DNA of 64,000 nucleotides from a virus. Lineage: Duplodnaviria; Heunggongvirae; Uroviricota; Caudoviricetes. The stretch's first letter is position 1. Every line of letters begins with the position of its first letter. A program made the position numbers and the translations under genes. The notes below the pieces were generated by a model. The model worked only from the letters and a program-made list of their open reading frames with translations, made no database searches and had not been told where the DNA came from. Of the stretch, positions 1,944-60,764 are shown piece after piece. The stretch covers positions 83,287-147,286 of the IMG/VR virus record IMGVR_UViG_3300031143_000003; one strand, written 5' to 3'.

Positions 1944-1951
1944 GTTAAGTT

Positions 1952-2527: not shown

Positions 2528-2534
2528 TGTAACT

Positions 2535-5515: not shown

Positions 5516-5562
5516 ATAATATAAATATCAATGTAATAGTTTAATGTATCAGCTATGTGAAC

Positions 5563-5766: not shown

Positions 5767-5767
5767 A

Positions 5768-6583
5768 TTAACCTCCAGTAATTGTTATGTTGTCTAGACA
5801 TATATCGCCCTTATATGTTGTTCCAGATTTTGCGAAGAACCATACGTATACGCCAGCTGCATTGCCTGCAATATTGTTCAAGTCAATTTCAGCTTTTCTC
5901 CAATATCCTTGTGTAGATGTACTGGTATGTCCTGAAGTCTGCTGCTGGCCTGTTATCCGATCTGATGTCGTGGTAGCTGTCCCAGTGTTATTTGTCCAAT
6001 GTAATATGTCACATCCGCCACCAGTATCAGAAGTAAATCCAAATCCAGAATAAGATTCTACGGAACTATCTGCGCTGGTTGCACTATCTGTAATTGCTAC
6101 ACCCAATGATCCTATATTCGCACCATACATATGATACCAGAATTCCAACTTTAAGGTGCTATTTGCTGCGGCCGAAGATAGGTCTATCTCAGGAGTTCGC
6201 AATACAAATCGCTTATTATATTGGCCAGATGTTTCAGTATATATATATTTACTGGCAGCAGTTGTTGCTCCAGTTGTTAGTGATTCGTTCATACCGTATT
6301 TAGGCCCAGTATTAGATGACGGAGTTGTTCCACCTTCAATATCCCATTTCCGAGTTGAAGTCGTTGAACCATAGATTGTCGCAGCAATATTATTCAACCA
6401 ACCTGTTGGTGATACTCCATAGCCTTCGGATATGGCATTAAAGTTTTCCGATAGTAACGTTGCGCTTGATGCAGCTGGAATTGCTATTGCCGTCATATAG
6501 TATATGGAAGCTTTTGCTACACCAGATACTTTTGCAATAGTAGATATAGGGACGGCTGATACTTTCGCTATAAACGCTGGCAT
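5768..6583 (-). CDS. Putative virion/fibre-associated structural protein
   Basis: 271 aa, Ser/Thr/Gly-rich. Start overlaps the upstream fibre gene stop. Lies inside the fibre gene block. Confidence 0.5.
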   Translation of the reverse strand: MPAFIAKVSAVPISTIAKVSGVAKASIYYMTAIAIPAASSATLLSENFNAISEGYGVSPTGWLNNIAATIYGSTTSTRKWDIEGGTTPSSNTGPKYGMNESLTTGATTAASKYIYTETSGQYNKRFVLRTPEIDLSSAAANSTLKLEFWYHMYGANIGSLGVAITDSATSADSSVESYSGFGFTSDTGGGCDILHWTNNTGTATTTSDRITGQQQTSGHTSTSTQGYWRKAEIDLNNIAGNAAGVYVWFFAKSGTTYKGDICLDNITITGG

Positions 6584-20943: not shown

Positions 20944-21564
20944 TTAAAATGATCCACCATCAATTGGACCAATGAATGCAGAAGCAGATAATTCGCCTGC
21001 AGCTGTTATCTTTGCAACTTCTCTTGGTGGATTTGCCTTATTGGCTGAATCAGTTGTTAGAAATATGATGTCTCCAGCTGTGCCGGTTACGTCTGCATGG
21101 GTACAAACTGAATATATTGCTGCAGATGCACCAGGGTCACCAGCTTCATTTTCATCCATCCATTTGATGCCACCCATATTGTCGTTTACGGCCGCCTTCT
21201 GACTCATTTTATCATACGATATTTCTATGATTGATCCAGTATCAGGAGTTCGTTTTTTGGTTTTAAATTCACCAGATATTTCAAAATCTTTAGTTGGATT
21301 TTTAGTGTTTATGCCAATCTTTCCAGATGACGAATAGTAAAATGGGACACGATCAGCTAATCCACCGAACGATGCAGATGGTATTCTGAATTCTATATTT
21401 TTTGATTCGGATCCCTCTAGTCCCCATGTACCCATTACAACAGCTGTACTTTCATCGATCATGGTTGTCATTGATCCGGATGGCCCAGCTACTTCAATTG
21501 ACTGGCTCACAGTAATTGACGTTGAACCACTCGTGAATTCTATGTTATTGCTTATTGATGCCAT
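20944..21564 (-). CDS. Small fibre-associated protein (206 aa)
   Basis: C-terminal ELSASAFIGPIDGGSF resembles the C-terminus of the 1261-aa protein. 20-nt overlap with the upstream tail fibre gene. Confidence 0.5.
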   Translation of the reverse strand: MASISNNIEFTSGSTSITVSQSIEVAGPSGSMTTMIDESTAVVMGTWGLEGSESKNIEFRIPSASFGGLADRVPFYYSSSGKIGINTKNPTKDFEISGEFKTKKRTPDTGSIIEISYDKMSQKAAVNDNMGGIKWMDENEAGDPGASAAIYSVCTHADVTGTAGDIIFLTTDSANKANPPREVAKITAAGELSASAFIGPIDGGSF

Positions 21565-24500
21565 TGAACATCTCCGTTAATTCTAATATTTGTTGTTTCA
21601 TATTGGCTATTTCTAGTTGTTGATCCTGTACACTTTTTACAAGAATAGGGATTAAGCCATCCCTATTTATAAACCATCTATCCGGATTTGATGTGTCTAC
21701 TAATTCCGGTAATACTTTATTCAATTCTTGGGCTATGAATCCAGTTTCTTTTTTGCCATCAGACTTCCATTCAAAATCTCGGACGTTTATAGCCAATAGA
21801 TCAGCCAAGGTTTTGTTGGTGTCAATTATGCTTTTCTTAAGACGAACATCAGATGATTCATATACCTTTATACCATTACCATCTGGTCGCGCATAACCAG
21901 ATTCTCCATTTGGTCCATGATAGCTTATAAATCTACCAGTTGAAGTTGTATTGTCAGTTTCCAACTTTAAGACTCTAGCATCAGTTGTTGAACTATGTTT
22001 CAAATGCGCAGTATAATTACCTGCTGAAGACGTTATAAACATTCCACCTTCATCGCCACCATCATTATATAATTTACCTTTACCGAAGAATGAATATGAA
22101 TAGCCAGAATATGCAGATGCATCAGCAATTATTGCAATTGCATTATTCTGACCCAATGTACCTGTATATGTAGTTGCTTCGGCTTTGAAGATTGCCCCAA
22201 TTTTTGTACCACCAGCGTAACATACGCCACCAGCATTGCATCGAGAGCTTAATGAATTTGCAGAGGCTACAACATCGTATGTAGACCAGGTTGAATCTAG
22301 AGTGCCCTCAGATACTCCAACATATAGACCCAAATCCTGTGATGTTGAACCTCCAGAATTTGATTGCTTTATATATGCTACAGCATCATTTGTTCCTAGT
22401 GCAGCTGTCCGATTGATTTGTAGAACCCCGTCTTCGATTTTGATACCGGGATTCGTTCCGTCTACATTGTCATCAATTGTTAATATTGGGGATGTGGTAG
22501 TACCATAGAATTTTAGGTTTGAATTTTGGCCGTCTATGATGAGACCTTGTGTCGACGTTCCAACATTACTACCGCCAAACGTTATCTTCTCGCCATTCAG
22601 ATCCATTTCCGTACCAGTAGTAGTTGTCCAGTTGTTTGATTTGACCTTACCTGAAGATATATTATCTCCAGATATTCTCGTAGATCCGCCGCCAGATTGA
22701 AATTCCGATATTCTAATGTAATCTATATTGGTTGTTGAGACCGAACCTGTTTTGTAATTTGTAATAATCAAAGGGGATATGTATTCAACATTATTATGGA
22801 GGGTCGTTGGATTAGTTATAGTTGGAGCTGATGCACCATTATCAGACGAAGACCTACCTTTGAAATATCCCTTGTATATTGTCCAATCTGTATTACCAAT
22901 ATCTTCAGCACTCAATGCAACATAATGTTGACTATAAGTACCGTTTGAACCATTGATATTTACATAGGTTGAACCATCCAAGGCATACCCATTTATCCCA
23001 ACATAAGCTCGAGCAGTAGAACCAATCTTAGTAGCTTTAAGTCTAATTTCGATTTCATATAATGATGCTGGATTCAATGGTATTAACTGGTTGCTTATCA
23101 TCCAGGTTCTAGTATTTGTAGTAGTACCATCACCAAGTTTTAGCGATCTAGACCCCTTTATATGACCCTCATCTGTTTTGAAGGTACGGGGTGCAGTCTC
23201 ACCAGTAGGAATATACCAACCTTCACCGGAGCCATCGGTCTTAGGATTATTTACTGATGATGTCATATCGGACATAGCGGCATATGTTGAGAAGTCTTCA
23301 TAGAATATTGTATTGAAGCCGTTTGACTCGCCAGCAAGAGATAGCATATTCGTAGATGCATTCCAGGATAATCCAGCGGAGGTGTTTGTTCCACCAAGAT
23401 AAAAGTCTCCAGAGGAAGACATATATGTATCCCATCCACTTCCACTATAATAACCTAAATTATTGGCGCCAAGGAATAAACCCTTTCCGGATGGAGTTGG
23501 AGAAAAATCGATCAAACCTGCTGATGTATTTGGTATTAATTCTGCATTTGAATCAGCGACTGCTTGTGCTGCTGCGGCTGCATTTGCAGCTGTTGTTGCA
23601 TTGGCACCAACTGTTGAAGTTAATGTAGATGTTGCATTTGCAGCTGTTGTTGCATTGGCACCAACTGTTGAAGTTAATGTAGATGTTGCATTTGCAGCTG
23701 TTGTTGCATTGGCAGTTATGCCCATAACATCATTAGTGTCAGTGAATGCCTCTATTGTTATAGCGCCTTTAACGACCAATTGTGTTCCATTCCAAGAAAA
23801 TTTATCAGCTAAGCTAAAGTTTCCAGTGTTATCAACATAGAATGCCGTGTCAGCATCACTATGTGTGCCATCTCCAATATACAGTTTGTCTGATTCTATG
23901 TCAACGCCACCAATTCTACCCGATGTTGCTGTTATTTTTCCAGTTAAGAATACATTTTCGGAGTATAATCCATATCCAGGATCAGTTAAGCTACCAATAC
24001 CACTAAGATCACCTAGTCTAGCTTTTACTTCTACATCATTGACTCCAGAACCAGTTCGTTCTATTATATCAATATACGGTGTACTGTTGTCACCAGGATC
24101 AGCATTGAGATGTATATAACCACTTTGTGTTACTTGACCAGGATTAGTTGTATTGTCATATAGACCTGCCGAAATTAATACTTGACCGTCAGTTACAGAT
24201 GGGATATATGGACCTCCACCAATTCGTCTAACCATATCTAATGATATAGGATCAGCCGATATTGTGTCGATCTGCATTATCTCCTCTACAAAACCAGTTG
24301 ACGATGTTGCTTTAGCTCTAACATATTCACCAACTACCCATCCGCCAGTATTTGCAACTGTAAATGAGTGTGTTGGATTACCAGTTCCGTCGAAGTCCAA
24401 ATTACTACCAGTAAATGTTGTCGCATTAGCAATCATTACTTGCCCACCTACTGCAGATATCGTGTCTTTTTCGAATACAGTCGTTCCAAGTGTACCACGT

Positions 24501-25144
24501 ACCTTAACATTGGCAAATTCAGCTTCAGTGCCATCTATCTTCCAACCAGTTTGATTAGAAATATAATCCTTAGTCTTTATTTCACCAGATGAATCTATTA
24601 CCAAATTAGAACTCGATAACGATGTTGCATTAATTGACCATCCAGATATGGACGAATTACCCGGGGACAAATTAACAGCATATGTTCCGGCGCCATCACC
24701 TACGAATTTTGCATCACCTGAACTAGATATGTATGCTGTTGCATTGTTTGCGTCTTTTCCGGCTGGCACAAATAATTGATTAGCAGATAAATCAGCGTTT
24801 ATAACTGTTCCTGCACCAATAATTAAGCTGTTGTTCAATGGATCAAGATGGAATAGTGAGGAAGATATTTCAATATTACCATCTGATCCAGATATGTATT
24901 GCGTATTCGCTGTTCCAACGAAGAACTTCTTAGCTCTAATATCCAATTCTGCACCTGCTGCTGATGCATCAAATTTCAAATATGAGTCTGATCCGGCGAC
25001 TAATTCCATTCCAACGCCATTGTATAAACTACCTGATAATTCTTGTGATCCAGACCAAAGCATCCATCCTGAAGGTCCTGTTCCATCTGATGCTGAGTCA
25101 AATCCCTTATAGTCTATTGTTTTTATATTAGCCTGATTAGCCAT
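21545..25144 (-). CDS. Tail fibre/tailspike with C-terminal intramolecular chaperone (Peptidase_S74-like) domain
   Basis: 1199 aa. C-terminus SSDVRLKKSIIDTNKTLADLLAINVRDFEWKSDGKKETGFIAQELNKVLPELV...DRWFINRDGLIPILVKSVQDQQLEIANMKQQILEL matches the SD.RLK...L..L....Y.W......GFIAQE...V.PE.V pattern of self-cleaving fibre chaperone domains. Strong SD (AGAGGAG) upstream. Contains a perfect 54-nt tandem duplication. Confidence 0.75.
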   Translation of the reverse strand: MANQANIKTIDYKGFDSASDGTGPSGWMLWSGSQELSGSLYNGVGMELVAGSDSYLKFDASAAGAELDIRAKKFFVGTANTQYISGSDGNIEISSSLFHLDPLNNSLIIGAGTVINADLSANQLFVPAGKDANNATAYISSSGDAKFVGDGAGTYAVNLSPGNSSISGWSINATSLSSSNLVIDSSGEIKTKDYISNQTGWKIDGTEAEFANVKVRGTLGTTVFEKDTISAVGGQVMIANATTFTGSNLDFDGTGNPTHSFTVANTGGWVVGEYVRAKATSSTGFVEEIMQIDTISADPISLDMVRRIGGGPYIPSVTDGQVLISAGLYDNTTNPGQVTQSGYIHLNADPGDNSTPYIDIIERTGSGVNDVEVKARLGDLSGIGSLTDPGYGLYSENVFLTGKITATSGRIGGVDIESDKLYIGDGTHSDADTAFYVDNTGNFSLADKFSWNGTQLVVKGAITIEAFTDTNDVMGITANATTAANATSTLTSTVGANATTAANATSTLTSTVGANATTAANAAAAAQAVADSNAELIPNTSAGLIDFSPTPSGKGLFLGANNLGYYSGSGWDTYMSSSGDFYLGGTNTSAGLSWNASTNMLSLAGESNGFNTIFYEDFSTYAAMSDMTSSVNNPKTDGSGEGWYIPTGETAPRTFKTDEGHIKGSRSLKLGDGTTTNTRTWMISNQLIPLNPASLYEIEIRLKATKIGSTARAYVGINGYALDGSTYVNINGSNGTYSQHYVALSAEDIGNTDWTIYKGYFKGRSSSDNGASAPTITNPTTLHNNVEYISPLIITNYKTGSVSTTNIDYIRISEFQSGGGSTRISGDNISSGKVKSNNWTTTTGTEMDLNGEKITFGGSNVGTSTQGLIIDGQNSNLKFYGTTTSPILTIDDNVDGTNPGIKIEDGVLQINRTAALGTNDAVAYIKQSNSGGSTSQDLGLYVGVSEGTLDSTWSTYDVVASANSLSSRCNAGGVCYAGGTKIGAIFKAEATTYTGTLGQNNAIAIIADASAYSGYSYSFFGKGKLYNDGGDEGGMFITSSAGNYTAHLKHSSTTDARVLKLETDNTTSTGRFISYHGPNGESGYARPDGNGIKVYESSDVRLKKSIIDTNKTLADLLAINVRDFEWKSDGKKETGFIAQELNKVLPELVDTSNPDRWFINRDGLIPILVKSVQDQQLEIANMKQQILELTEMFNGINKQ
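23582..23714 (-). repeat. Perfect 54-nt tandem repeat (2.5 copies) inside the tail fibre gene
   Basis: atttgcagctgttgttgcattggcaccaactgttgaagttaatgtagatgttgc repeated at 23582-23635 and 23636-23689, plus 25 nt of a third copy. It encodes (TSTLTSTVGANATTAANA)n. Confidence 0.9.
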
Positions 25145-27117
25145 TAAGATACTCCTCTAAGTACTATTCCGTTTCCAATCACAAGTGATCCAATTATATG
25201 ATTGTTTGCACCGTTTATATATGTATTTGGTCCTGCGAAGTTTATGTCGCGAACTATATGTGAATATTCAGCCAGTTGTTCATTTGCATTGTAAAAATCA
25301 AACTTAAAGTCGAGTTGTGCGTCTTGTTGCTGCGTATTTAATTGTACGTCTACAAATGTATGATTCGGCGTGAAGCCAGTTTCAGACGTAGACGTTAGTG
25401 ATATATCCGATATCCACCATTTACCATGTGATATTTTGAATACTGGTACAATTGATCCATCGCTATCGGCTGTGAATTCAAATCCCAGCATTTCATCAAC
25501 TGTTATCGGATTAGTTATCTGTGGAGGACTAGTTGTTGGCGATTGCGGAGAAGTTGCTTGGGAACGAGATTGGCCAGTTGATGATAGCATACGCGTTGGA
25601 AAAGCTCCATTTGTCGTTGAAGCAAAATATTGCATCTTGCCAGTCGGTACTGGACTAGTTGATGGCGGTGATATCTTTCCAATATATTTTCCTAGTTCAG
25701 GTATCTGTGAAGTTACACCTGATCCAGACAAATAGAACTTAACCAATGGATGAACAAGACCATTTGGACTGTCATTAACTGATATACTTTTAGCCCTAAA
25801 CGATAAATAATATGTGTTGCCTTTATATATTTGTATTGGTTTTGTGCCATTAAATCTAGTGTAAGCTGATGATCTTGGCGTAGCATTCAATAGCAATTCT
25901 GTTCCAGACAATTCAACTGCATCTACCAATTCAACGTCACTAACTGCTGTTGTTGGACTTCCAACTACACCTACCATAGACGATTCCCAGTACGATGTTA
26001 ATACGTCTGAATTAACAAACTTGCCTGTTGGCTTTCTATGGAATATGTTGGATGAATCTATCAATAATTCACGTGACTCTACTATGTCATCTGATACCGG
26101 ATTCCAGTCTGTCTCGCTATTCAGTTTCATATATGTTTTTATCTTGTGTACGTCTCCAACCATTGGATCCATGTTTGCAACTATTATGCTTGCATATGAA
26201 ATTTGATTTTCAGCTACAGTTGTATATGCATCTGGAATCTGCATGTATGATATTTGGAATGATGTGAATGCAAACGTAATTGGATAAACAGTTGTTTGCA
26301 GTGGTCCACCATAATTCATGGTTGAATTTCGACTGATGTTTGGATTTGCAATTGTTACATCTACTGAATAATGTGGGGAAATCTTGATTGTGGTAGAATT
26401 TATAACGTCAACAATTGTTGCATTGAATGATGGTGGAGTGCTAGGAGTTAGGTAGCCATCGACTAATTCAGTAGATGGAGTAATTGATATAGATCCGCCT
26501 ATCATGTCAGATGTTAGTGTTGCTCCAACAAAGTTCAGTTGCGACTGATTATTTGATAATTTTGAATATGTACCTGTTCCAGTTGAATATGTTGCAGCAG
26601 ATGCTGTTCCTATTGCATACGACTGAGATAATTGACTTCGAACAGATTCATTAATATGTACTCTTGGGTTTTCATTGAATAGTATTGGAGTTATATTTGC
26701 TTGCGTTGGATCAACATATAATTGTTTTTTCCAGCGTACATTTTGTTTACCTTTCCAGTTGTCAGATACATCGCGACCGTTTGGACGTTTTGCTGCTGTT
26801 CCAATGATAGTTAGTGTTGCAGGGCCAGCTGGAGTCTCTGGATAAACATATATTGCAACGAGTCTTCTATCCAATCCATCCTTGTAATTTAATACTTCAT
26901 GGTAAATAACTTGACCTATAGCATCAGTTATTTCAACCGATATTTCAGTATTTATTTCAAGTAATGAACTGTTTCCAGTTAATTTGAATTGATTTTTGCC
27001 GGAGGTAAGAGTTTGGGGTATATCAGAGACGTTAAAATATTCAGAATGAACTGATTGATCTGTTACAAGTACGGGTAATTCGGCTAAACCCTTATATGCA
27101 TTTCTTTTTCTAATCAT
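25144..27117 (-). CDS. Large structural protein (657 aa), possibly baseplate/fibre-associated
   Basis: Long ORF with SD (GGAG) upstream. Start/stop overlap with the neighbouring tail fibre gene. Confidence 0.5.
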   Translation of the reverse strand: MIRKRNAYKGLAELPVLVTDQSVHSEYFNVSDIPQTLTSGKNQFKLTGNSSLLEINTEISVEITDAIGQVIYHEVLNYKDGLDRRLVAIYVYPETPAGPATLTIIGTAAKRPNGRDVSDNWKGKQNVRWKKQLYVDPTQANITPILFNENPRVHINESVRSQLSQSYAIGTASAATYSTGTGTYSKLSNNQSQLNFVGATLTSDMIGGSISITPSTELVDGYLTPSTPPSFNATIVDVINSTTIKISPHYSVDVTIANPNISRNSTMNYGGPLQTTVYPITFAFTSFQISYMQIPDAYTTVAENQISYASIIVANMDPMVGDVHKIKTYMKLNSETDWNPVSDDIVESRELLIDSSNIFHRKPTGKFVNSDVLTSYWESSMVGVVGSPTTAVSDVELVDAVELSGTELLLNATPRSSAYTRFNGTKPIQIYKGNTYYLSFRAKSISVNDSPNGLVHPLVKFYLSGSGVTSQIPELGKYIGKISPPSTSPVPTGKMQYFASTTNGAFPTRMLSSTGQSRSQATSPQSPTTSPPQITNPITVDEMLGFEFTADSDGSIVPVFKISHGKWWISDISLTSTSETGFTPNHTFVDVQLNTQQQDAQLDFKFDFYNANEQLAEYSHIVRDINFAGPNTYINGANNHIIGSLVIGNGIVLRGVS

Positions 27118-27178: not shown

Positions 27179-30100
27179 TTAATATTGTACTAGACTCGTT
27201 GAATCTGTTACGTCTATTTCAATTAAACTGTCAACCATATCCTTCATGATGTCAATATGTGACACAATCATTAGAAAGTCGAATTCAGTCTTGAGATAAC
27301 CAAATAATAATTCAAGTGAGCTGATGTTGGTTGAATCTAGGTTACCGAATCCTTCATCAATAATTAGGAAGTTCGGACGTGGTAAGTTAGATACCTTAAT
27401 CAATGCAACTCTAATTGCTAATGAGCTTATAAACTTTTCCATACCCGAAGTCATTTCAAGTGGCCACATATTGTCGTCGTATTTTATGTAGCTCAATATG
27501 TCCTTACCGTCAACGTCAAAACGTATCTCAAAATCAACTATTTGCGAAAGTGTATTGTTTACTTCCTCTTCAATGTATGGTAATGTTTCTGCAATAATTT
27601 CATATGGAATTCCATCGCGTCTAATTGCATCTAAATAATATTCGTATGACTTGAGTTTCAATTCTAATTCATGTGCATCACCAATTATTGTCTGAATTGA
27701 TTCAATTGTTTGTTTTGCCATGGATACACTACTGAATGCATTACGTAATACTATGTTTTGGGACGATATTCTACCCTTGATCGATGATCTATTTGATTCT
27801 AGGCTAGACAGTTCCAGGTTTATAGATATATTATGCTTTATTGCAGCTTCATTTTGGTAATATATAACAATACTTGCATCAACATCAGTTAAATTTCTAT
27901 TTGATTCAAGTAATGCATTTCTACGTCGTTCCAATTTTGTAACAACTTCTGACTCATATCGAATATATTTTGATTGGTCATTTGTTAGTGTGCTATACGC
28001 ACGAATATCATCCGATATTTTGGCTGCACCTTGTAGCAATTTGTCAGAGTCCGATTTAGCTGCCAATAACGATGCCACGACCAGTTTATCGTCTAATAAT
28101 TCAATTTTTGCATCTTCAGCTGATTTAACAAAGTCGTTGTTGCAACAGTATTCGCAGTTTGGATCATATTCATGCTTTGCTAACTTTGATATTGATGTTA
28201 ATTTATTTTGTACGTTTACCTTGATTATGCCAATCTTTTGCTGAATCTGTCTGTTATTTGACTGTTCAGTTTGCATTGTTGCATGTTGCGTGTTCAATTG
28301 AACTATGTCATATGATAACATCTCTGTTGCCAGTTCGTCCAACTTTAGTTTATTTGTTTCCATATACGCCGAATATTTTTCCAGCTTATCTGTATGATCA
28401 ACGATATCTGATGCGACATTGCTTCTAGTTAATTGCATAGCAGCCAAGTCTGTTGATACTGATACATGCTTTAGTTCCGCAGATTTATCCTTTATTGATA
28501 ATTCGGCAGCGTCTAAATCTTCAGTTAATTTAGCTTGTTGTGCAGATAACGTGTCGTATGCTATTACATGTTCATCCAACAAGTATTCTGCGTCAATTAA
28601 TTTTTGCGCATAATCTACATTCTTAAAATTTCGCAGTAATGTTTGTACAGACTTTATTTCGTCATTGGCTAATCTAAATAATTCCTCGAAAACAAATATG
28701 TCTAAAAACTTAGACAATAGATTTTTCTTTTCCGGTTGAGGTTTATCAATGAATCCAGTATTGTTATTTTGCATTGACATTGCTGTTAGTACAAAATCCT
28801 CATATATTCCCAAATATCCAGTTATGTTTCTATCTGTATATCTACGTTGTTCACCATTAAGTGATAGTTTTTCACCGGATTCATCGATCATCCAAAAGTC
28901 AACATCAACTCGAACCGATTTACCATCCTTGTTTCGTTTTCCCCTACGTTCAACAAAATAATCTACACCGTCTATTTCAAAGTTTAATTTGCTATTGAAT
29001 GTATCTAATCTATTATTCATTACATTTGCAGCAGAGAATGTTCTAGAGCATTTATTGAATAAGCAGAACATTAGCGCATCAAATATTGCAGATTTACCAG
29101 CATGGTTAGGGGCAAATATTCCAATCACATCGTTCGCCTTAGAAAAGTCAATTTTATTGTTTGGCCCATAGCTGAACATGTTGTCGAATTCAAACGTTTT
29201 GGGTTTCCAATTGATTCCCCTTGATACATCGGCGTCAAGTAATCGTTTATTCAATTCCCTGTTTATGTTCTTAATTCTACGCATTGTCTCATCATCTGGA
29301 TTATGATTTGTTCTAATATAATCATCCAACAATTGATTCTGATATGAAACGTCACGAATATCCCTAACAATCTTTCTAGTTTTCTTATTTTGTGCATCCA
29401 ATCTATCGTTTCTAATTATAACGATGTCAGTTGTTTTGCAGCTAGTTTTAATTGTTTTAGTTAATTCCTTTATTTGAGCTTGAGTTGTATTTGTTGTACG
29501 CAATCTAACCCGGGGATACTTTGGTATATCTGATATATTGGGAAGTACACCATCAGCTATATCAATAGTATAATATCCGTAATTATTTGTGAAGTCTACA
29601 AATTCGACAGTCCTAGATTTAACATCCCATATGCCACATCCATGGTTTTCAAATGCTTCACCAAAATTTTGTTGCAATGTTGAGCCAATCTGTAGTATCG
29701 TTTTTGCTTCGTCGTAAAATTGTCGCTTATGAATATCTCCCAACATTGACATGTCATATCCATCAAACATTGTTACGGGCAAATTGTCATTACTAACAAC
29801 ATATCCCTTATCAGTAGTCGACTTATCAACTGCACCATGAAATAATGCTATCTTTGTTTCGGCGTCAAATGAGTCCGATTTAATAAATGTAGCAGGATCA
29901 TCAAATATTCCAAATACTGTGAAGTGCACATTTGCTATATGATATACACCTGAATCCTTTAGGTAGTGCAAGTTTGGATGATTTAGCGCTGAAATTATTG
30001 GCGTTAATGAGTCCAACCTAGTTGAATTATTTAGATTTGCATCATGATTACCAGTTATAACAATAGTATGTCGTCTATCTGCTAAATTAGTAAAGAATTC

Positions 30101-30325
30101 AGACGTTAGTTCAATTAACTCTGGTGATATGTCAGTTTTACTATGTACAATATCTCCGCCTACATAGACAATAGCGTTTTTAGGAAGGCGATCGATCTCG
30201 TCATATAGTTGTTTGAATACAGCACGGTATTCCGCATGTCGCTGATAGTTTCGAATATGGATATCAGCCACGTGTAATATTTTGTCAATTTCATTAAATC
30301 CTACGTCTATTTTATTAAAATCCAA
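27179..30325 (-). CDS. Fused Mre11-Rad50 (SbcD-SbcC; T4 gp47+gp46 equivalent) recombination nuclease/ATPase
   Basis: 1048 aa. N-terminus has phosphoesterase motifs VADIH, GGDIVH, GNHD, GDIH (Mre11/SbcD). Then Walker A FAPNHAGKS, long coiled coils, zinc hook CEYC, signature SGME, Walker B LIIDEGF, H-loop IVSH (Rad50/SbcC). Confidence 0.85.
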   Translation of the reverse strand: MDFNKIDVGFNEIDKILHVADIHIRNYQRHAEYRAVFKQLYDEIDRLPKNAIVYVGGDIVHSKTDISPELIELTSEFFTNLADRRHTIVITGNHDANLNNSTRLDSLTPIISALNHPNLHYLKDSGVYHIANVHFTVFGIFDDPATFIKSDSFDAETKIALFHGAVDKSTTDKGYVVSNDNLPVTMFDGYDMSMLGDIHKRQFYDEAKTILQIGSTLQQNFGEAFENHGCGIWDVKSRTVEFVDFTNNYGYYTIDIADGVLPNISDIPKYPRVRLRTTNTTQAQIKELTKTIKTSCKTTDIVIIRNDRLDAQNKKTRKIVRDIRDVSYQNQLLDDYIRTNHNPDDETMRRIKNINRELNKRLLDADVSRGINWKPKTFEFDNMFSYGPNNKIDFSKANDVIGIFAPNHAGKSAIFDALMFCLFNKCSRTFSAANVMNNRLDTFNSKLNFEIDGVDYFVERRGKRNKDGKSVRVDVDFWMIDESGEKLSLNGEQRRYTDRNITGYLGIYEDFVLTAMSMQNNNTGFIDKPQPEKKNLLSKFLDIFVFEELFRLANDEIKSVQTLLRNFKNVDYAQKLIDAEYLLDEHVIAYDTLSAQQAKLTEDLDAAELSIKDKSAELKHVSVSTDLAAMQLTRSNVASDIVDHTDKLEKYSAYMETNKLKLDELATEMLSYDIVQLNTQHATMQTEQSNNRQIQQKIGIIKVNVQNKLTSISKLAKHEYDPNCEYCCNNDFVKSAEDAKIELLDDKLVVASLLAAKSDSDKLLQGAAKISDDIRAYSTLTNDQSKYIRYESEVVTKLERRRNALLESNRNLTDVDASIVIYYQNEAAIKHNISINLELSSLESNRSSIKGRISSQNIVLRNAFSSVSMAKQTIESIQTIIGDAHELELKLKSYEYYLDAIRRDGIPYEIIAETLPYIEEEVNNTLSQIVDFEIRFDVDGKDILSYIKYDDNMWPLEMTSGMEKFISSLAIRVALIKVSNLPRPNFLIIDEGFGNLDSTNISSLELLFGYLKTEFDFLMIVSHIDIMKDMVDSLIEIDVTDSTSLVQY

Positions 30326-31220
30326 ATCGCATCTCCACTATTTTTGTTAAATCCAATGATTCAGATTTATTAATTATTTCTTTCATTTTATCAAGTCCAA
30401 TATCACTTGGATCAGTGTCGTTTGGCAGTTCAATTAAATGTACGTCCACATCTAATCCTAGTAGATATTCGGATAGTCTCAGAGCTTCTTTCATAGCATC
30501 CTTATCTAATATTACATTAATCCGCCTTACCTTTTTGTCATTAATCTGTTGCTTGAGTTTTGGCGATAAAAACTTCCCAAACAATGGTATCGTATTTTCA
30601 CCTATTGCAAATGCATCAAAAACGCCTTCACATAGGTTTATGTCTTCTTTCCAGTTTATCAACATGTCGAATCCAATTATGTCTTTAGATACTTTTGGAT
30701 TTTTGTGCTTGTATGCGACTTCATAGTACGATCTACCAACGAAGTAGTTTAATATTCCGTTAGCATCGTAACTTGGCACAATAATATATCCTGCATAATA
30801 CCCAGATTCACAATATCCAATATTATGTCGTAATACGTCGACCTTAGATAATCCCCTATTGCGTAAATATGCCATTGCATTTTTGTATTCTGGACTATAT
30901 CGGTTACCGTTGATCATTGGTATGAACTCATATGGTAATACACATATCGTCGATAGTTTATCGGTTTCAACCGTTTGCTTCGGTGTGAGCAAGTTCAGCT
31001 CAGCAATCTTACTACCAGCTCCAACTGCCTTGAATATCCGGTGTATTCCAACACCCTTTATTCCACATACCCAACAGTGCCACCGATAGTTATTCAAATT
31101 GATGTTGAACTTCTTTTTTGGATGGGAGCAGTAAGGGCATGCAAAGGCTATTTCATTTTTGCTGATCTTTGCAATACCGAGTACTGCCTGCAGAAGATGA
31201 ATTAGCCTTTGTTTTTTCAT
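30315..31220 (-). CDS. DNA primase (zinc-ribbon plus TOPRIM, DnaG/T4 gp61 type)
   Basis: 301 aa. Zinc-binding CPYCSHPKKKFNINLNNYRWHCWVCG, TOPRIM-like EGVFDAFAI and ILDKD. 11-nt overlap with the SbcCD start. Confidence 0.7.
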   Translation of the reverse strand: MKKQRLIHLLQAVLGIAKISKNEIAFACPYCSHPKKKFNINLNNYRWHCWVCGIKGVGIHRIFKAVGAGSKIAELNLLTPKQTVETDKLSTICVLPYEFIPMINGNRYSPEYKNAMAYLRNRGLSKVDVLRHNIGYCESGYYAGYIIVPSYDANGILNYFVGRSYYEVAYKHKNPKVSKDIIGFDMLINWKEDINLCEGVFDAFAIGENTIPLFGKFLSPKLKQQINDKKVRRINVILDKDAMKEALRLSEYLLGLDVDVHLIELPNDTDPSDIGLDKMKEIINKSESLDLTKIVEMRFGF

Positions 31221-31248: not shown

Positions 31249-31692
31249 TTATGAAAATTTTATGGTGCTTATTTTCTCGAATGTTTGTTCTGTTAATCTA
31301 ACTCTGGCGAAGCGCCTAGGGCCTATGCAATCATTGTAAAAATCTGATTTTGCTGAAACATGGAATCGGTGGTGGATGTTTTCCTCAAGATAGTTTACCT
31401 GTCCCTTTGTTTCACCAAGTATCAATATCTCAAATGTGAAGTTGGATTTACCGAGTTTAGCTATATCTGAATTCAGTAGCTTGGATGATCCAGTGTATTC
31501 TCGCCAATTTGAATCCTTTCTAATAACCTTTCTGCGAGTTTTGCCTGGTACCTTTATTCGTCGAGTTGTACCAAAGTATTTTCTACCGACGTATTTTTTT
31601 CCAGTTTGATTGTTTGTTATTAAGTAAACAAAACCAAACATGTCTTCTGGGGTTTCACTCAGAATTGACCCATTATATAACCAATGTGACAT
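31249..31692 (-). CDS. GIY-YIG family endonuclease (free-standing, Seg-like homing endonuclease candidate)
   Basis: 147 aa. GFVYLITN...GKKYVGRK (GIY...YIG-like) with downstream conserved R/E/N positions. Inserted between primase and a structural gene. Confidence 0.6.
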   Translation of the reverse strand: MSHWLYNGSILSETPEDMFGFVYLITNNQTGKKYVGRKYFGTTRRIKVPGKTRRKVIRKDSNWREYTGSSKLLNSDIAKLGKSNFTFEILILGETKGQVNYLEENIHHRFHVSAKSDFYNDCIGPRRFARVRLTEQTFEKISTIKFS

Positions 31693-33372: not shown

Positions 33373-34449
33373 TTAGTAATCTAATTTTACGCGGATAGTT
33401 GCTTCTCTTGTGAAGTTTTTAAGTAGTGGCTTAGACAGTTTTGCAACTGCAACTAATTCATTTTCGTCACTATATAATCCAACAGTTGTTATATATGTTT
33501 GTGGATCATTTATCATTTCAACATGCTTTAAGTTTCCTGATCCTGTTACAAATGTATTGTTGTTTGTAAAATTGTATTCAGAATTTTTAACTCTAATAAA
33601 GTAATGCGTTGATGAAATATCCTCTTCAGCGCGAGCTTTAAATGACGATAATGCAGTAATCATATTTGTTTTCATGGCTGCGTCTACGTCTAATACTGGA
33701 GCTGGAAAGTATCCGTTTAATCCGCTTGTATCATCCATCTTATCAACACTTAATGCAATTATACCTAATTCTGGATAGAATAATCCATATTCAGTGTGTT
33801 GTGGAGATGACGCAATAGTTGTACCAGATCCAGATACAACTGAATATACTTTCTTGCCATTTTTAGCCATTGCTGGAACAGTTGAACTGTTATCGATTAA
33901 GCTAATTGTGTCTGCACCATTTTCTAGGTCAATATCCCAATTTCCCTTATTTGCTTTTTCCTTGTATCTAGCTCGATTGAACGTGATGAACATCATGTCA
34001 GTTTCATCGTCGCCATCTATTGTAAACTTATCGTCACCTGGTTCCAATAATAGATTTGCAAACTGAGTGTATATTGCTTTAGCTGGAGACATACTAGCAT
34101 CACTTGCACCTGAACTGGTTACAGCACCTGCGCCATCGATGTTTCCATATGCTATACTAAATTGTGGAGTAGCAGTAGCGTCAGTTGCTGGGTCAGTTGA
34201 GTATACCTCAAATTGGTATTTTCCACCTGCGGATGCAACTTGATCTGATGATGTATAGAATGAGGTTAGTGTTGAATCGGCGTCATTTGTAAACATTGCT
34301 GATGTTATACCTTTTGCAACGTCGGATTCAACAACATCGTCTTCATTAAAGTTTTGAAATACTCGCATGTTAATTCCACGCTTTGCCTTTCTAAGTCTAC
34401 GTGAAACTAATGCTTGTTTGTCTATTCCGGATCTAAATCTATTTGCCAT
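33373..34449 (-). CDS. Structural protein, C-terminal paralogue of the 551-aa protein (358 aa)
   Basis: C-terminus ITTVGLYSDENELVAVAKLSKPLLKNF matches ...SVGLYNDSGDLCAIGKMAQPIKK of the 551-aa protein. Confidence 0.5.
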   Translation of the reverse strand: MANRFRSGIDKQALVSRRLRKAKRGINMRVFQNFNEDDVVESDVAKGITSAMFTNDADSTLTSFYTSSDQVASAGGKYQFEVYSTDPATDATATPQFSIAYGNIDGAGAVTSSGASDASMSPAKAIYTQFANLLLEPGDDKFTIDGDDETDMMFITFNRARYKEKANKGNWDIDLENGADTISLIDNSSTVPAMAKNGKKVYSVVSGSGTTIASSPQHTEYGLFYPELGIIALSVDKMDDTSGLNGYFPAPVLDVDAAMKTNMITALSSFKARAEEDISSTHYFIRVKNSEYNFTNNNTFVTGSGNLKHVEMINDPQTYITTVGLYSDENELVAVAKLSKPLLKNFTREATIRVKLDY

Positions 34450-35151: not shown

Positions 35152-38100
35152 TTAAACTATTTTTATGTCTCCGCTGTGTGATGTATTATCAGTTATGAGC
35201 TTATTTGGATTCGTTTCAAATACTTCCACAACTGGTTTACCATCAACAGTGTCCGGACTGTCAATATTAAAATCGTCACTAGTCATTTTGCAGCCTTCAA
35301 CAATTAGGTTGTTCATGCCGGTAAAATCAGTTTGCAATTGAGCAGCATGAGTCAAGCCGTTTGACTGATATTTGCTATTATTGCGTGAATTGCTTGCGTT
35401 TTGCATTAGTCCATCAGTGTCACATTTTATGACATTTAGATTGAGTTTAGCAGGAACATACGACGTCCAATGCTTATGTGTTGCTGCGCCAGCTGCGTCA
35501 TATAATTGTGTACCTACCGCATTTGGCATATTTCCAACTATTCCATCTTCAACCACGTTGATTTTGCATTGGTGATGCATATCTTCATATGATATTACCG
35601 GCTCAGTTACGATTTTTGGACGTTCTAACATTGTCTGTTTAACAACTAGTCCAACAATTTTATTTGCTCGAGCAGGTAACATACTTTCTATTTGTTTGAA
35701 CAATGCAGTATTGAAATACTTGACCATTCTCATGAATGCCCATATATTTTGTTTACCATTGTACTTTTTAAAATATGCGTTTCTAAATTGGGCTAACCCA
35801 GTATATTCTGATTTATGATTATCTCTAGGGTCTCCAACTATGTCGTCGATCGATAACCCACCGAATTGTAATGATATATCTGCATCTAATTCAGCTTGTG
35901 GAGAGAATCCAACAAATAATAAATTTGAATCAATTGGATTATTCATTCCAGAACTAACCTCTACACTTTCATTTGGATGTAGGTCGCCAACTGCAACATT
36001 ATCTTCTACTCTAATTTTGTTTGCTAAGCCTCGCATACCAATTGAATTTGGTACTGGAGTAAAATAATCTTCTTCGTTGTATGTCCAAGCAAACGTTCCA
36101 TTTATGGTTGCTGTTCTAGTCGTTGATTGATTTGGATGCGAAGATGAAATATTTGCAACTGTTACATCTGGACGATTTGTGTCTGCTCCCATTGGTAATC
36201 TAAATAATAGATTGTCATATGATCCAGTATATGAATTACCAAGTATACTAACTGGAGCCTTTGTGTGCACATCAATTACATCATCAGATAATTCATTATC
36301 CCATAATCTAACTTCCTGCATATGTCCATTAAAAAAGCCAACTACATTATTTGTATCATTGTACTTTGCTGCCGATGATGATTTTCCAATATCAAAATAT
36401 TCTATGCCGCCATCAGTCCATCCATATGGTGTAAGTGGAGCTGGTACAGATGATTTTGCAGCATGCGTTATTCTGGATCCAGCATGATCTGGCGATTTTT
36501 GACAGGCTAATGAAATATTTCCAGTTATATCGTCACGTTTGACTGAAACGTTCCACCAATCATTATCATATATTGGTAATCTTGCTAGTGACGTTGACGC
36601 ATACGTTATAACCGTTGGTGAGGTTGTTTTGGTTACAGCTGTTGAATACTTAACTATACCGTATTGTCCAGATGATTCTGGCTCAATCCATAGTGATGAT
36701 GCTGGAATTCCAGCAATGTTATATGATGTTGCACATAATGACATTGTTGCAATAGTATTTGTTTTAAATCTTAATTCAATTGTGTTTATTGGTGTAGTAT
36801 TGTAATTATTGTCCCAATCTGTTCGTAAATATGAATCGGTACCATTGAATTTCAACATGTATCCGGCTTGAAGTATTTCATTGTTACTGCCAATGGATGA
36901 ATCAATTGGATCTGGACCACCGAATTCCTGTATTTTTAGTATTGTGGATGGTATACCGTAGCATGACATTAACGCTTTTACGCCTCTAGCCGTTCCCTTT
37001 GTCTTTAGTAAGTATGGTAAGTTATTAAGTATTCTTGACCATGGTTCCGCCTCTATGTCTTGTATTGACATTGTTTCACCAGTAACGGTTTTTATTGTTG
37101 CTCCATTTGGATATTCAGCCGATGATGTTTCAACAGTGTTTGTTCCAGTTTTGTTTGTACCTAAATAATATGACCATATGTTTGATAAATCTAAACCAGA
37201 TTCTGGCTTCCAGCCGAATGAAGATAGCACGTCAAATAATAGATCCTTTGATAGTCCAACATTAACGTCCTCATCTTTACTGTGTATGTTTTTCAAATGA
37301 TCAACATGATTATATACTTCATCAAAATGCTGTGAGACCATGTCAACAAATAATACGTATCCATTATTTCCACTGTCCAATTTTATATGCAATGGAATTG
37401 TACTTCTAAGTGAATTATCATTTGCTAAATCATAATCTGCCGCAATTGCCATTTGATTATCAAACCAATCCGTTGATGCAACGTCTAATGTGCTAGCAAC
37501 TGTATACGGTTTAGTTTGAGTAGTCTTTGGCCATGTCGTATCTGGATGTGTGCCATATGTATCAGTATATTCTGATGCGGAGTTAAAGTACATATGTTGC
37601 TCATAGCCATCAAATGTTCCAACTAATTTTGCTATTTTGTCATCCATATCAGTCTTAACTGCAATGTAATAGCTTGATCCAGTTGCTGATGACGTTATGT
37701 TTGATTTTGTCGATTTGTATGATTCTATTAACTGTAGCTTATATTTGAAGTTACGTAATCGTTCTTCAGCTGAACTGAAGTGGACAAAGTTTTCATATGA
37801 TGAATAATCTATATTAAGTGTTGCACCTAAACTACCACTAAATACCTTGTCGACTACTCTACTATTTGTTTCAACATCTGCTGAAAGTATGTCATTCCAC
37901 GATGATAATGCAGTTGGTTTTCCAATTTCCCTATTTACATCAAGGGTTAGATTTGGGCCTCTAAGTATATTAAAATCTTCTGGTGCAGATGGATCGTCTA
38001 ATTGTATTGTGAATTGTATTTCAAATGGATTGATTATATCGTCAAATAATTGAACAGTATCTCCAGCCTTAATACTTCTAGGTAAATCGTCTGCTACCTT

Positions 38101-39827: not shown

Positions 39828-39829
39828 TA

Positions 39830-60760: not shown

Positions 60761-60764
60761 GTTG

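What the first reader, a model, noticed from the sequence alone, without database searches (positions are those of the whole stretch)
27179..30325. Single-polypeptide Mre11-Rad50 (SbcD-SbcC) fusion
One 1048-aa ORF contains all Mre11 phosphoesterase motifs (DIH, GDIVH, GNHD, GDIH) at its N-terminus. It also has a complete Rad50 ATPase: Walker A, coiled coils with a CxxC zinc hook, SGxE signature, Walker B and H-loop. In T4 and most phages and bacteria these are two proteins (gp47/gp46; SbcD/SbcC). A covalent fusion fixes 1:1 stoichiometry and is architecturally uncommon.
Basis: seen in the sequence. Interest (0 to 1): 0.55.

Follow-up and report, generated by a model that had tools for sequence, protein, structure and literature searches.

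The report
Natural Mre11-Rad50 fusion enzyme, marine phage
This phage gene really does encode the DNA-end-processing nuclease Mre11 and its ATPase partner Rad50 as one intact protein, but this fused design was described in 2011 and is very common in ocean viruses, so it is a solid but ordinary finding.

Summary
Window 27179..30325 (minus strand) is one 1048-aa ORF. It carries a complete Mre11/SbcD nuclease at residues 1-360, made of the nuclease domain, the capping domain and a helix-loop-helix. An 11-residue tether joins this to a complete Rad50/SbcC at 372-1048, with both ATPase lobes, two ~170-residue coiled-coil arms and a CEYC zinc hook.

It is not an assembly artefact. The identical protein lies on 13 contigs from several samples and two assembly pipelines. 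About 2,500 clusters (50% identity) match at E<=1e-30, and nearly all of the best 150 are full-length fusions. Catalytic residues are almost invariant down to 33% identity.

The architecture is not new. Yoshida, Claverie and Ogata (Virol J 2011) described natural Mre11/Rad50 fusions, including Mimivirus R555 and a Bacillus phage. They noted abundant marine homologues lying next to phage primases and endonucleases, which is the synteny seen here. The best named viral structural matches are Mimiviridae R555 orthologues. The closest isolate is Microcystis phage Mel-JY01 (40% identity), where the gene is annotated only as an 'AAA domain' protein.

The most likely role is a homodimeric (MR)2 DNA-end and hairpin processing machine that replaces T4 gp46/gp47 in recombination-dependent replication and repair. 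Interest is low.

The parts
27179..30325 (-). Whole ORF: 1048-aa Mre11-Rad50 fusion, TTG start, stop codon at 27179-27181
   Evidence: The identical protein is P0001, found on 13 contigs.
29591..30325 (-). Mre11/SbcD phosphoesterase (nuclease) domain, aa 1-245. Motifs: I DIH 21-23, II GDIVH 57-61, III GNHD 92-95, IV H163, V GDIH 196-199
29411..29578 (-). Capping domain, aa 250-305 (beta strands plus one helix)
29351..29410 (-). Flexible linker, aa 306-325. pLDDT is below 50 for residues 307-318, and the length varies among relatives (11-24 aa)
29246..29350 (-). Helix-loop-helix, aa 326-360 (helices 326-340 and 345-360). Inferred to be the Rad50-binding domain of Mre11
   Evidence: The AF2 helices have pLDDT 82-91. 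Y328, Q329 and N359 are invariant. The position and size match the HLH described for fusion proteins in PMC3175470. Docking onto the coiled coil was not tested.
29213..29245 (-). Fusion tether, aa 361-371, joining the Mre11 HLH to the first strand of Rad50
   Evidence: It is exactly 11 residues in 43/43 close relatives and in 105/139 distant ones, with a range of 9-15. This fits the 9-12 residues estimated in PMC3175470 to span about 28 A.
28697..29212 (-). Rad50 ATPase N-lobe, aa 372-543. Walker A APNHAGKS 405-412, Q-loop Q519
28175..28696 (-). Ascending coiled-coil arm, aa 544-717
   Evidence: AF2 predicts long helices at 544-568, 572-615, 627-669 and 674-717. Arm length is tightly conserved at about 181 aa.
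28136..28174 (-). Zinc hook, aa 718-730, with CEYC at 724-727 (window 28145-28156)
   Evidence: C724 and C727 are invariant in 139/139 sequences. The motif sits at the turn between the two arms in the AF2 model.
27623..28135 (-). Descending coiled-coil arm, aa 731-901
   Evidence: AF2 helices at 731-766, 770-824 and 826-901. Arm length is conserved at about 174 aa.
27182..27622 (-). Rad50 ATPase C-lobe, aa 902-1048. Signature SGME 960-963, Walker B FLIIDE 986-991, D-loop D997, H-loop H1023
   Evidence: Pfam SMC_N and SbcC_Walker_B. Alignment to E. coli SbcC 951-1036. The motif residues are invariant.
30315..31220 (-). Upstream DnaG-type DNA primase (301 aa). Its stop overlaps the fusion gene's TTG start by 11 nt, so it is the conserved operon partner
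   Evidence: PHROG 47 DNA primase E 1.4e-30. The same order is seen in Mel-JY01 and LR756508. Its cultured relatives are SPO1-, Twort- and A511-type primases, as for the GOS scaffolds in PMC3175470.
31249..31692 (-). SegE-like GIY-YIG endonuclease (147 aa), syntenic neighbour
   Evidence: Pfam SegE_GIY-YIG E 2.1e-31. Mel-JY01 has a GIY-YIG gene at the same position, and it is present on all longer contigs.

Best explanation
The gene encodes an active single-chain Mre11-Rad50 (SbcD-SbcC) enzyme of an uncultured marine tailed phage. The longest contig is about 147 kb, and the phage is a distant relative of Microcystis myophage Mel-JY01.

Shown here:
- One ORF holds a complete Mre11 nuclease with its capping domain.
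- This is followed by a flexible linker and a helix-loop-helix.
- An 11-residue tether then leads into a complete Rad50, with a bipartite ABC-ATPase head, two coiled-coil arms of about 170 residues each and a CxxC zinc hook.
- All catalytic and metal-binding residues are under strong purifying selection across thousands of relatives.

Inferred from established knowledge of Mre11-Rad50/SbcCD and T4 gp46/gp47:
- Two chains assemble into an (MR)2 homodimer through the Mre11 nuclease domains, ATP-driven engagement of the Rad50 heads and the zinc hook.
- The helix-loop-helix docks on the base of the coiled coil of its own chain, because the short fixed tether allows nothing else.
- ATP binding and hydrolysis then switch the nuclease between a blocked state and a cutting state on DNA ends and hairpins.

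In the phage the enzyme would take the place of T4 gp46/gp47. It would resect ends to feed a RecA/UvsX-type recombinase for recombination-dependent replication and break repair. The gene is co-transcribed with the primase gene, and probably translationally coupled to it.
For: Domain content and motifs:
- Both halves are detected on one polypeptide by profile searches and by direct motif reading.

Fold:
- AF2 mean pLDDT is 81, with the expected order of elements.
- The Foldseek top PDB hits are Mre11-Rad50 complexes 7zr1 and 7yzp.

Reality and selection:
- The identical protein is on 13 contigs.
- The top 120 hits are nearly all 1035-1052 aa (one is 935 aa), and all carry Metallophos, most with a Rad50-type domain as well.
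- 2,489 cluster representatives match at E<=1e-30.
- In 139 sequences at 33-52% identity, the catalytic residues, hook cysteines, arm lengths and the 11-residue tether are conserved.
- Intein-bearing variants exist. Inteins typically sit in essential, conserved genes, which is established knowledge rather than something tested here.

Replication and recombination context:
- The primase lies immediately upstream with an 11-nt overlap, in this window and in LR756508.
- The relative Mel-JY01 encodes RecA/RadA, a gp41-type helicase, PolB and a clamp loader. It has no separately annotated SbcC/SbcD, and tblastn with the fusion finds only one matching place in its genome.
- Neither half has a paralogue in the 64-kb window.

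The published analysis of such fusions reached the same structural reading (PMC3175470).
Against: - No biochemical or genetic data exist for any member of this clade.
- The oligomeric state, cis docking of the helix-loop-helix and the in vivo role are inferences.
- The AF2 pTM is only 0.45, as expected for an elongated multidomain chain, so the relative placement of domains is not reliable. Model coordinates could not be inspected for contacts between the HLH and the coiled coil.
- Scores against the curated NCBIfam sbcC and sbcD models are far below their trusted cut-offs (62 vs 478 bits; 37 vs 78 bits). This is a divergent viral branch, not an equivalog of the bacterial enzyme.
- Only 64 kb of a genome of about 147 kb was seen, so a recombinase partner is documented only in the 40%-identical relative.
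- The gene is embedded among tail and baseplate genes rather than in a large replication cluster.
Confidence: 0.85

Rival explanations
1. Assembly or sequencing artefact: two adjacent genes (an sbcD-like and an sbcC-like gene) were merged by a missed stop codon or frameshift.
For: In T4 and bacteria the two genes are adjacent, so a single error could merge them. No tool result supports it.
Against: - The identical 1048-aa ORF occurs on 13 contigs from different samples and two assemblers.
- More than 100 homologues at 49-71% identity have the same length and both domains.
- Nearly all of the best 150 representatives at 33-52% identity are full-length.
- The isolate genome Mel-JY01 has a single 1066-aa CDS.
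- There are no homopolymer runs, and the other frames on the coding strand are full of stops.
Confidence: 0.01
2. A defence or counter-defence module rather than a replication and repair enzyme. Two versions are possible. One is an SMC-like ATPase-nuclease that excludes competing phages or plasmids, working like Lamassu, Wadjet or Septu. The other is a host-DNA-degrading nuclease.
For: - There are weak PADLOC matches: mad3 E 1.9e-10, PbeC, LmuB and AbiLi.
- JetC, LmuB and PtuA appear in the structural hit lists.
- T4 gp46/gp47 also contribute to host DNA breakdown (established knowledge).
Against: - Most PADLOC matches (PbeC, LmuB, AbiLi) cover only the P-loop region, about 70-90 residues, and the longer mad3 match to the ATPase head is still weak (38.9 bits).
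- No partner genes of those systems are adjacent.
- The gene is a conserved, syntenic core gene coupled to the primase across relatives down to 36% identity. Defence islands are typically variable.
- The CxxC hook and the Mre11 capping and HLH modules are specific to Mre11-Rad50.
Confidence: 0.05
3. The enzyme acts mainly as an SbcCD-type hairpin and palindrome endonuclease, or removes protein-blocked ends. Examples would be processing of replication intermediates or genome termini, rather than resecting ends for recombination-dependent replication.
For: - PHROG names for both halves are 'subunit of palindrome specific endonuclease'.
- E. coli SbcC is the best PDB sequence match, and SbcD structures are the best nuclease-domain matches.
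- The same enzyme chemistry serves both roles (established knowledge of SbcCD and Mre11-Rad50).
Against: Nothing in the sequence separates the two roles. Motif II is GDxxH and motif V is GDxH, as reported for R555, rather than the canonical GDxxD form of motif II cited in PMC3175470. The relative encodes a RecA-type recombinase and a T4-like replisome, which favours a role like gp46/gp47.
Confidence: 0.09

Closest known systems
Mimivirus R555 and its Mimiviridae orthologues (natural Mre11/Rad50 fusion proteins; Yoshida, Claverie and Ogata, Virol J 2011, PMC3175470)
   Same: - The domain order in one polypeptide is the same: Mre11 at the N-terminus and Rad50 at the C-terminus.
- The HLH is retained, followed by a short tether.
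- Two motif peculiarities reported for R555 are shared: GDxxH in motif II, and Asp in place of P. furiosus Mre11 His206 in motif V.
- The best named viral structural matches are R555 orthologues: Tupanvirus A0A6N1NVE8 (E 2.2e-68, 24% identity), then Harvfovirus, Yasminevirus and Catovirus.
- The paper's marine R555 homologues sit beside phage primases and endonucleases, as this gene does.
   Different: - This protein is about 300 aa shorter (1048 against 1351-1389 aa), with shorter coiled coils.
- It is encoded by a tailed phage, not a giant eukaryotic virus.
- Identity is only about 20-24%.
- Monophyly with R555 was not tested by phylogeny here.
Microcystis phage Mel-JY01 WWT39521 (PP395634), annotated 'AAA domain containing protein'
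   Same: It is 40.4% identical over 99% of the length and is a single 1066-aa CDS with Metallophos, AAA_23 and SMC_N domains. The local gene order is the same: GIY-YIG, then primase, then the fusion.
   Different: A small 57-aa ORF lies between the primase and the fusion gene. The host is a freshwater cyanobacterium and the genome is 190 kb. The record's annotation does not recognise the fusion.
Phage T4 gp47/gp46 (Mre11/Rad50 homologues)
   Same: The two share the same two enzymatic activities. The presumed role is also the same, namely end processing for recombination-dependent replication in a phage with a T4-type replisome (relative Mel-JY01). This functional comparison rests on established knowledge of T4.
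   Different: T4 uses two separate polypeptides encoded by adjacent genes, whereas here there is one chain. The split phage homologues detected (for example Synechococcus phage S-SZBM1, 21% identity) match only one half of this protein.
E. coli SbcCD (PDB 6s6v, 6s85, 7yzp)
   Different: SbcCD has two subunits. SbcC alone is 1048 aa and has coiled coils about twice as long. The NCBIfam sbcC and sbcD trusted cut-offs are not reached.
Other fused forms in cultured phages: Bacillus phage 0305phi8-36 (PMC3175470), Tenacibaculum phages pT24 and PTm1, Listeria phage LMTA-57, Xanthomonas phage phiXF1 gp71
   Same: All have a single ORF spanning a metallophosphoesterase and a Rad50-type ATPase.
   Different: They are only distantly related (13-23% identity) and range from 951 to 1318 aa. 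The Bacillus phage protein lacks the capping/HLH region and one P-loop NTPase segment of the ATPase. The fusions are probably independent events, as the 2011 paper argues.

Membership tests
Mre11/SbcD nuclease (calcineurin-like phosphoesterase, COG0420) | Five phosphoesterase motifs carrying the metal ligands (DxH, GDxx[D/H], GNH[D/E], H, G[H/D]xH) | tested here: met
   The motifs are DIH 21-23, GDIVH 57-61, GNHD 92-95, H163 and GDIH 196-199. They are invariant in 43 sequences and almost invariant in 139.
Mre11/SbcD nuclease (calcineurin-like phosphoesterase, COG0420) | Significant match to family profiles | tested here: met
   Pfam Metallophos scores 38.9 bits against a cut-off of 21.5. PHROG 100 SbcD-like gives E 1.9e-31 over aa 14-357. 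The family profile hits T. maritima Mre11 at E 2.9e-6. The NCBIfam sbcd subfamily model is below its trusted cut-off, at 37.4 against 77.65 bits.
Mre11/SbcD nuclease (calcineurin-like phosphoesterase, COG0420) | Nuclease domain plus capping domain fold | tested here: met
Mre11/SbcD nuclease (calcineurin-like phosphoesterase, COG0420) | C-terminal helix-loop-helix that binds the base of the Rad50 coiled coil | tested here: inconclusive
   Two confident helices (326-340 and 345-360) follow a disordered linker, and several of their residues are conserved.
Mre11/SbcD nuclease (calcineurin-like phosphoesterase, COG0420) | Mn2+-dependent exo- and endonuclease activity | not testable with these tools
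   This needs purified protein.
Rad50/SbcC ABC-ATPase (COG0419) | Walker A, Q-loop, signature motif, Walker B, D-loop and H-loop split between N- and C-terminal lobes | tested here: met
   The motifs are APNHAGKS 405-412, Q519, SGME 960-963, FLIIDE 986-991, D997 and H1023.
Rad50/SbcC ABC-ATPase (COG0419) | Long antiparallel coiled coil between the lobes, with a CxxC zinc hook at its apex | tested here: met
   AF2 predicts helical arms at 544-717 and 731-901, with CEYC 724-727 at the turn. Both cysteines are invariant in 139/139 sequences, and arm lengths are conserved. Zinc binding itself was not testable.
Rad50/SbcC ABC-ATPase (COG0419) | Closer to Rad50/SbcC than to other SMC-like ATPases | tested here: met
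Natural Mre11/Rad50 fusion proteins, R555-like (Yoshida et al. 2011) | Mre11-like domain at the N-terminus and Rad50-like domain at the C-terminus in one ORF, with the HLH retained and a tether of about 9-12 residues | tested here: met
   The domain order is shown. The tether is 11 residues in 43/43 close relatives and 105/139 distant ones. The criterion comes from PMC3175470.
Natural Mre11/Rad50 fusion proteins, R555-like (Yoshida et al. 2011) | R555-type motif substitutions (His as the last residue of motif II; Asp in place of PfMre11 His206 in motif V) | tested here: met
   The window protein has GDIVH and GDIH.
Natural Mre11/Rad50 fusion proteins, R555-like (Yoshida et al. 2011) | Groups with R555 and the marine metagenomic homologues in a phylogeny | not tested
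   Only indirect support exists. The BFVD top hits are Mimiviridae R555 orthologues. The neighbouring primase has the same best-hit phage taxa as the neighbours on the GOS scaffolds. No R555 or GOS sequence was available for building a tree.
SMC-like anti-phage defence ATPase-nuclease systems (Lamassu LmuB, Wadjet JetC, Septu PtuA, PbeC) | Full-length match to the system's ATPase model, with the system's partner genes adjacent | tested here: not met
   The PADLOC matches are weak, and most cover only the P-loop region: LmuB E 5.5e-5 over aa 385-456 and PbeC E 7.7e-6 over aa 386-467. The neighbours are a primase, a GIY-YIG endonuclease and tail genes.

The most novel reading that the evidence does not exclude
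This clade may be one of the most abundant viral DNA-repair genes in the ocean. It may also be an obligately cis-tethered Mre11-Rad50. In that reading, the retained helix-loop-helix and the length-invariant 11-residue tether lock each nuclease to its own ATPase. Phages of this type, rather than giant viruses, would then be the reservoir of the fusion now found in the Mimiviridae (R555). If so, the protein would be a natural minimal single-chain model for Mre11-Rad50 mechanics. Relatives in which homing-endonuclease-like ORFs re-split the gene inside the nuclease domain would show that Mre11 can be rebuilt from two fragments.
Probability: 0.3. Interest if true: 0.4.

Novelty: new member of a known kind. 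Interest (0 to 1): 0.2.

Why it matters
The direct value is to annotation. Public records label members of this family 'AAA domain containing protein' (Mel-JY01) or 'hypothetical protein' (Xanthomonas phage phiXF1 gp71). Metagenome pipelines label them 'SbcCD ATPase subunit', or even 'LPS export ATPase'. The family is in fact a complete fused Mre11-Rad50.

The finding also links a 2011 observation to a concrete phage gene context. That study found that 'Mimivirus R555-like' reads dominate the Mimivirus-like hits in marine viromes and probably come from phages. Here the context is primase, then the fusion gene, inside a tailed-phage genome of about 147 kb.

For enzymology, a naturally single-chain Mre11-Rad50 of about 120 kDa with short coiled coils could be a convenient subject for structural and single-molecule work. 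It does not change how Mre11-Rad50 biology is understood.

Tried and rejected
1. Assembly error: rejected.

2. Known phage by DNA: megablast of window 20000-40000 against 50,697 phage records found nothing. Only protein-level relatives exist.

3. Defence-system membership: the PADLOC scan gave only weak, generic ABC-ATPase matches. Rejected.

4. A split version of the gene in Flavobacterium phage immuto_3-5A. That phage has the best primase match (37% identity) followed by genes annotated 'exonuclease' and 'NadR', so I guessed they were the two halves. BLASTP and Pfam show these genes are unrelated: one is a PD-(D/E)XK nuclease, and the 907-aa protein has no similarity. The guess was wrong. 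That phage lacks the fusion at this position.

5. A second, separate Mre11 or Rad50 gene in the window: phmmer of the fusion against all 172 stop-to-stop ORFs of at least 70 aa found only the fusion itself.

6. Promoter and terminator scan of 26900-31900: fewer hits than the shuffled controls, so it was uninformative.

7. Literature searches for 'Mre11-Rad50 fusion' together with 'phage', and for 'Mel-JY01', returned nothing. A broader search found the key 2011 paper. A search for later work that names R555 with Mre11 and Rad50 found only three papers mentioning it in passing, and none was read.

8. The afdb50 fold library was unavailable, so cellular fused homologues were not surveyed structurally.

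9. Model coordinates are not exposed, so contacts between the HLH and the coiled coil in the AF2 model could not be measured.


Full report
**Observation**

Window 27179..30325 on the minus strand holds a single 1048-aa ORF. It begins with TTG, preceded by GGAG 6 nt upstream, and the start overlaps the stop of the upstream gene by 11 nt.
- Mre11 motifs: DIH 21-23, GDIVH 57-61, GNHD 92-95, H163 and GDIH 196-199.
- Rad50 motifs: Walker A APNHAGKS 405-412, Q-loop Q519, hook CEYC 724-727, signature SGME 960-963, Walker B FLIIDE 986-991, D-loop D997 and H-loop H1023.

Profile searches place both families on the one polypeptide:
- Pfam gives Metallophos 15-199, AAA_23 381-604 and SMC_N 379-1039, all above their gathering scores.
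- PHROGs gives SbcD-like 14-357 (E 1.9e-31) and SbcC-like 279-1046 (E 1.1e-40).
- NCBIfam sbcd and sbcc match but lie far below their trusted cut-offs. This is a divergent viral branch, not an equivalog of the bacterial enzyme.

**Is it an artefact?**

No.
- The ORF has no long homopolymer runs, and the other two frames on the coding strand carry 80 and 152 stops.
- The identical protein is called on 13 contigs from different samples, in ENA assemblies and in Logan assemblies. The neighbours are the same each time, and the longest contig is 147,338 bp.
- A word-indexed search of 5.8 billion proteins gave 4,772 hits at E<=1e-5. The best 120 (49-100% identity) are nearly all 1035-1052 aa (one is 935 aa), and all carry PF00149, most together with PF13476 and/or PF02463. 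Many come from Tara and other marine data.
- An exhaustive HMMER search of 1.84 billion 50%-identity cluster representatives gave 10,952 hits at E<=1e-3 and 2,489 at E<=1e-30. Nearly all of the best 150 (33-52% identity) are full-length proteins of 1020-1100 aa.
- The cultured Microcystis phage Mel-JY01 has a single 1066-aa CDS that is 40.4% identical over 99% of the query. Its local gene order is the same: GIY-YIG, then primase, then the fusion.

**Anatomy**

An AlphaFold2 model built on 43 homologues has mean pLDDT 81. It predicts, in order:
- a nuclease domain at residues 1-245;
- a capping domain at 250-305;
- a disordered linker at 306-325 (pLDDT below 50 at 307-318);
- a confident helix-loop-helix, with helices at 326-340 and 345-360;
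- a short tether at 361-371;
- the Rad50 N-lobe at 372-543;
- a helical arm at 544-717;
- the turn carrying CEYC at 724-727;
- a return arm at 731-901;
- the C-lobe at 902-1048.

**Selection**

Among 139 sequences at 33-52% identity, all nuclease metal ligands, the Walker A lysine, the signature, Walker B, the H-loop and both hook cysteines are invariant or nearly so. The two arms keep lengths of about 181 and about 174 residues. The HLH-to-Rad50 tether is 11 residues in 105 of the 139 sequences, with a range of 9-15. It is 11 residues in 43 of 43 closer relatives, whereas the capping-to-HLH linker varies in length. Both enzymatic halves and the geometry of their connection are therefore under purifying selection.

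**Context**

- The gene immediately upstream (30315..31220) is a DnaG-type primase (PHROG 47, E 1.4e-30).
- Upstream of that lies a SegE-like GIY-YIG endonuclease.
- The surrounding genes are tail-fibre and baseplate genes.
- The TTG start and the 11-nt overlap with the primase recur in the 36%-identical orthologue of the 484-kb phage LR756508. This suggests translational coupling.
- The window has no paralogue of either half.
- Mel-JY01 encodes a T4-like capsid, sheath and tube, RecA/RadA, a gp41-type helicase, PolB and a clamp loader. It has no separately annotated SbcC or SbcD, and tblastn with the fusion finds only one matching place in its genome.

**Mechanism**

This section is inferred from established knowledge of Mre11-Rad50/SbcCD and of T4 gp46/gp47.
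- Two chains should form an (MR)2 homodimer through the Mre11 domains, ATP-dependent head engagement and the zinc hook.
- The helix-loop-helix should bind the coiled-coil base of its own chain, because an 11-residue tether leaves no other option.
- ATP turnover should gate the nuclease on DNA ends and hairpins.
- In the infection cycle the enzyme most likely does the job of gp46/gp47, which is end resection for recombination-dependent replication and break repair.
- Oligomeric state, cis docking, substrates and phenotype are all untested.

**Comparison with what is known**

The architecture is published. Yoshida, Claverie and Ogata (Virol J 2011; PMC3175470) made four relevant points:
- Mimivirus R555 is an Mre11/Rad50 fusion.
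- Twelve more fusions exist in eukaryotes, bacteria, plasmids and Bacillus phage 0305phi8-36.
- The HLH is retained, and a tether of 9-12 residues would span the roughly 28 A between the Mre11 C-terminus and the Rad50 N-terminus.
[quoted passage not shown] They lie on scaffolds beside phage primases (G1, Twort, SPO1, LP65, A511, S-PM2) and endonucleases, so they probably belong to phages.

The present locus fits that description in four ways:
- It has the two motif peculiarities reported for R555, GDxxH in motif II and Asp for PfMre11 His206 in motif V.
- Its tether is 11 residues long.
- Its best named viral structural matches are Mimiviridae R555 orthologues: Tupanvirus (E 2.2e-68, 24% identity), Harvfovirus, Yasminevirus and Catovirus. 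These rank ahead of the fused phage proteins of Tenacibaculum pT24 and PTm1 and Listeria LMTA-57.
- Its neighbouring primase finds exactly the Herelleviridae-type primases listed for the GOS scaffolds.

**Rivals**

- An assembly artefact is excluded.
- A defence-system ATPase-nuclease (Lamassu, Wadjet or Septu type) is unlikely. The PADLOC hits are weak and mostly confined to the P-loop region. Structural similarity to those ATPases is lower than to Rad50. No partner genes are adjacent. The gene is a syntenic core gene.
- Nothing in the sequence can tell whether the enzyme acts mainly on hairpins and blocked ends, like SbcCD, or in resection, like gp46/gp47.

**Verdict**

The finding is correct and robust, but it is a new member of an already described kind. 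The additions from this work are quantitative:
- the size of the family;
- the near-invariance of the tether and the arm lengths;
- the coupling to the primase;
- the mis-annotation in public records: 'AAA domain containing protein' in Mel-JY01, 'hypothetical protein' in Xanthomonas phage phiXF1, and 'LPS export ATPase' in one JGI record.

Side observations on relatives are listed separately. They include intein-bearing variants, and genes re-split inside the nuclease domain by inserted ORFs, at least one of them TnsA-like. Interest is low, at about 0.2.

Noticed in passing
L002 (LR756508, 484-kb uncultured phage) 3971..8196: The orthologous fusion gene is split inside the Mre11 nuclease domain, just after motif V (GDIHKRQ), by a free-standing 305-aa ORF at L002 4692..5609. 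That ORF has a TnsA-like endonuclease domain (PF08722, E 5.8e-6). The result is a 243-aa fragment carrying motifs I-V and an 861-aa fragment carrying the rest of Mre11 plus Rad50. It looks like a homing-endonuclease-type gene insertion that fragments the gene, comparable to the split NrdA of an Aeromonas phage (PMC3045599, which appeared in the results but was not read).
   Followed up: partly
L013 (ena:ERZ27265945:k141_227550) 1613..6598; representatives P0254, P0261, P0263, P0266: The same split point recurs in an unrelated marine contig. The order there is a TnsA-like ORF, a 233-aa Metallophos fragment, a 269-aa inserted ORF with no Pfam hit, and an 865-aa remainder. Four of the best 150 cluster representatives are such 854-866-aa C-terminal pieces starting at query position 201-210. 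Several variants of 1083-1101 aa have an insertion of about 40 aa at the same loop.
   Followed up: partly
Representatives P0168, P0174, P0197, P0223, P0234 (1326-1381 aa): Some relatives carry an insertion of about 255-325 aa near query residue 80, between Mre11 motifs II and III. In P0168 this is an intein, with Intein_splicing and LAGLIDADG_3 domains.
   Followed up: partly
window 30315..30325; L002 3971..3981: The fusion gene starts with TTG and overlaps the primase stop by 11 nt, both in the window and in the 36%-identical LR756508 orthologue. In the window a GGAG lies 6 nt upstream. This suggests conserved translational coupling from the primase to the Mre11-Rad50 fusion.
   Followed up: partly
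window 31249..31692 (-): This 147-aa ORF is a SegE-like GIY-YIG endonuclease (Pfam PF19835, E 2.1e-31). Its best PHROG, phrog_447, is labelled 'NAD synthetase', and the Flavobacterium phage immuto homologue is annotated that way. That label is probably a propagated mis-annotation. The gene is syntenic in Mel-JY01 and on all longer contigs, which is unusual for a mobile homing endonuclease.
   Followed up: partly
PP395634.1 183173..186373 (Mel-JY01 WWT39521); PP475461.1 41118..43973 (phiXF1_71): Fused Mre11-Rad50 genes in cultured phages are not recognised in the public records. One is labelled 'AAA domain containing protein' and the other 'hypothetical protein'. One JGI homologue (P0060) is named 'ABC-type lipopolysaccharide export system ATPase subunit'.
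   Followed up: yes
window 21545..25144 (-), repeat at 23579..23714: This 1199-aa tail-fibre protein contains a perfect 54-bp tandem repeat in 2.5 copies, encoding repeated ANATTAANATSTLTSTVG units. Its C-terminus has a Peptidase_S74-type intramolecular chaperone.
   Followed up: no
window 54282..54356 (-) and 60764..60857 (-): There are two phage-encoded tRNAs: tRNA-Met(CAT) and a long (94-nt) tRNA-Leu(CAA). The second has a modest Rfam score of 36.7 bits.
   Followed up: no
window 8398..12183, 25144..27117, 33373..34449, 35152..40858 (-): Several large ORFs (1261, 657, 358, 1149, 408 and 342 aa) around the baseplate and tail-fibre genes have no PHROG match at E<=1e-3 or 1e-4. All plausible genes in the 64-kb window lie on the minus strand.
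   Followed up: no
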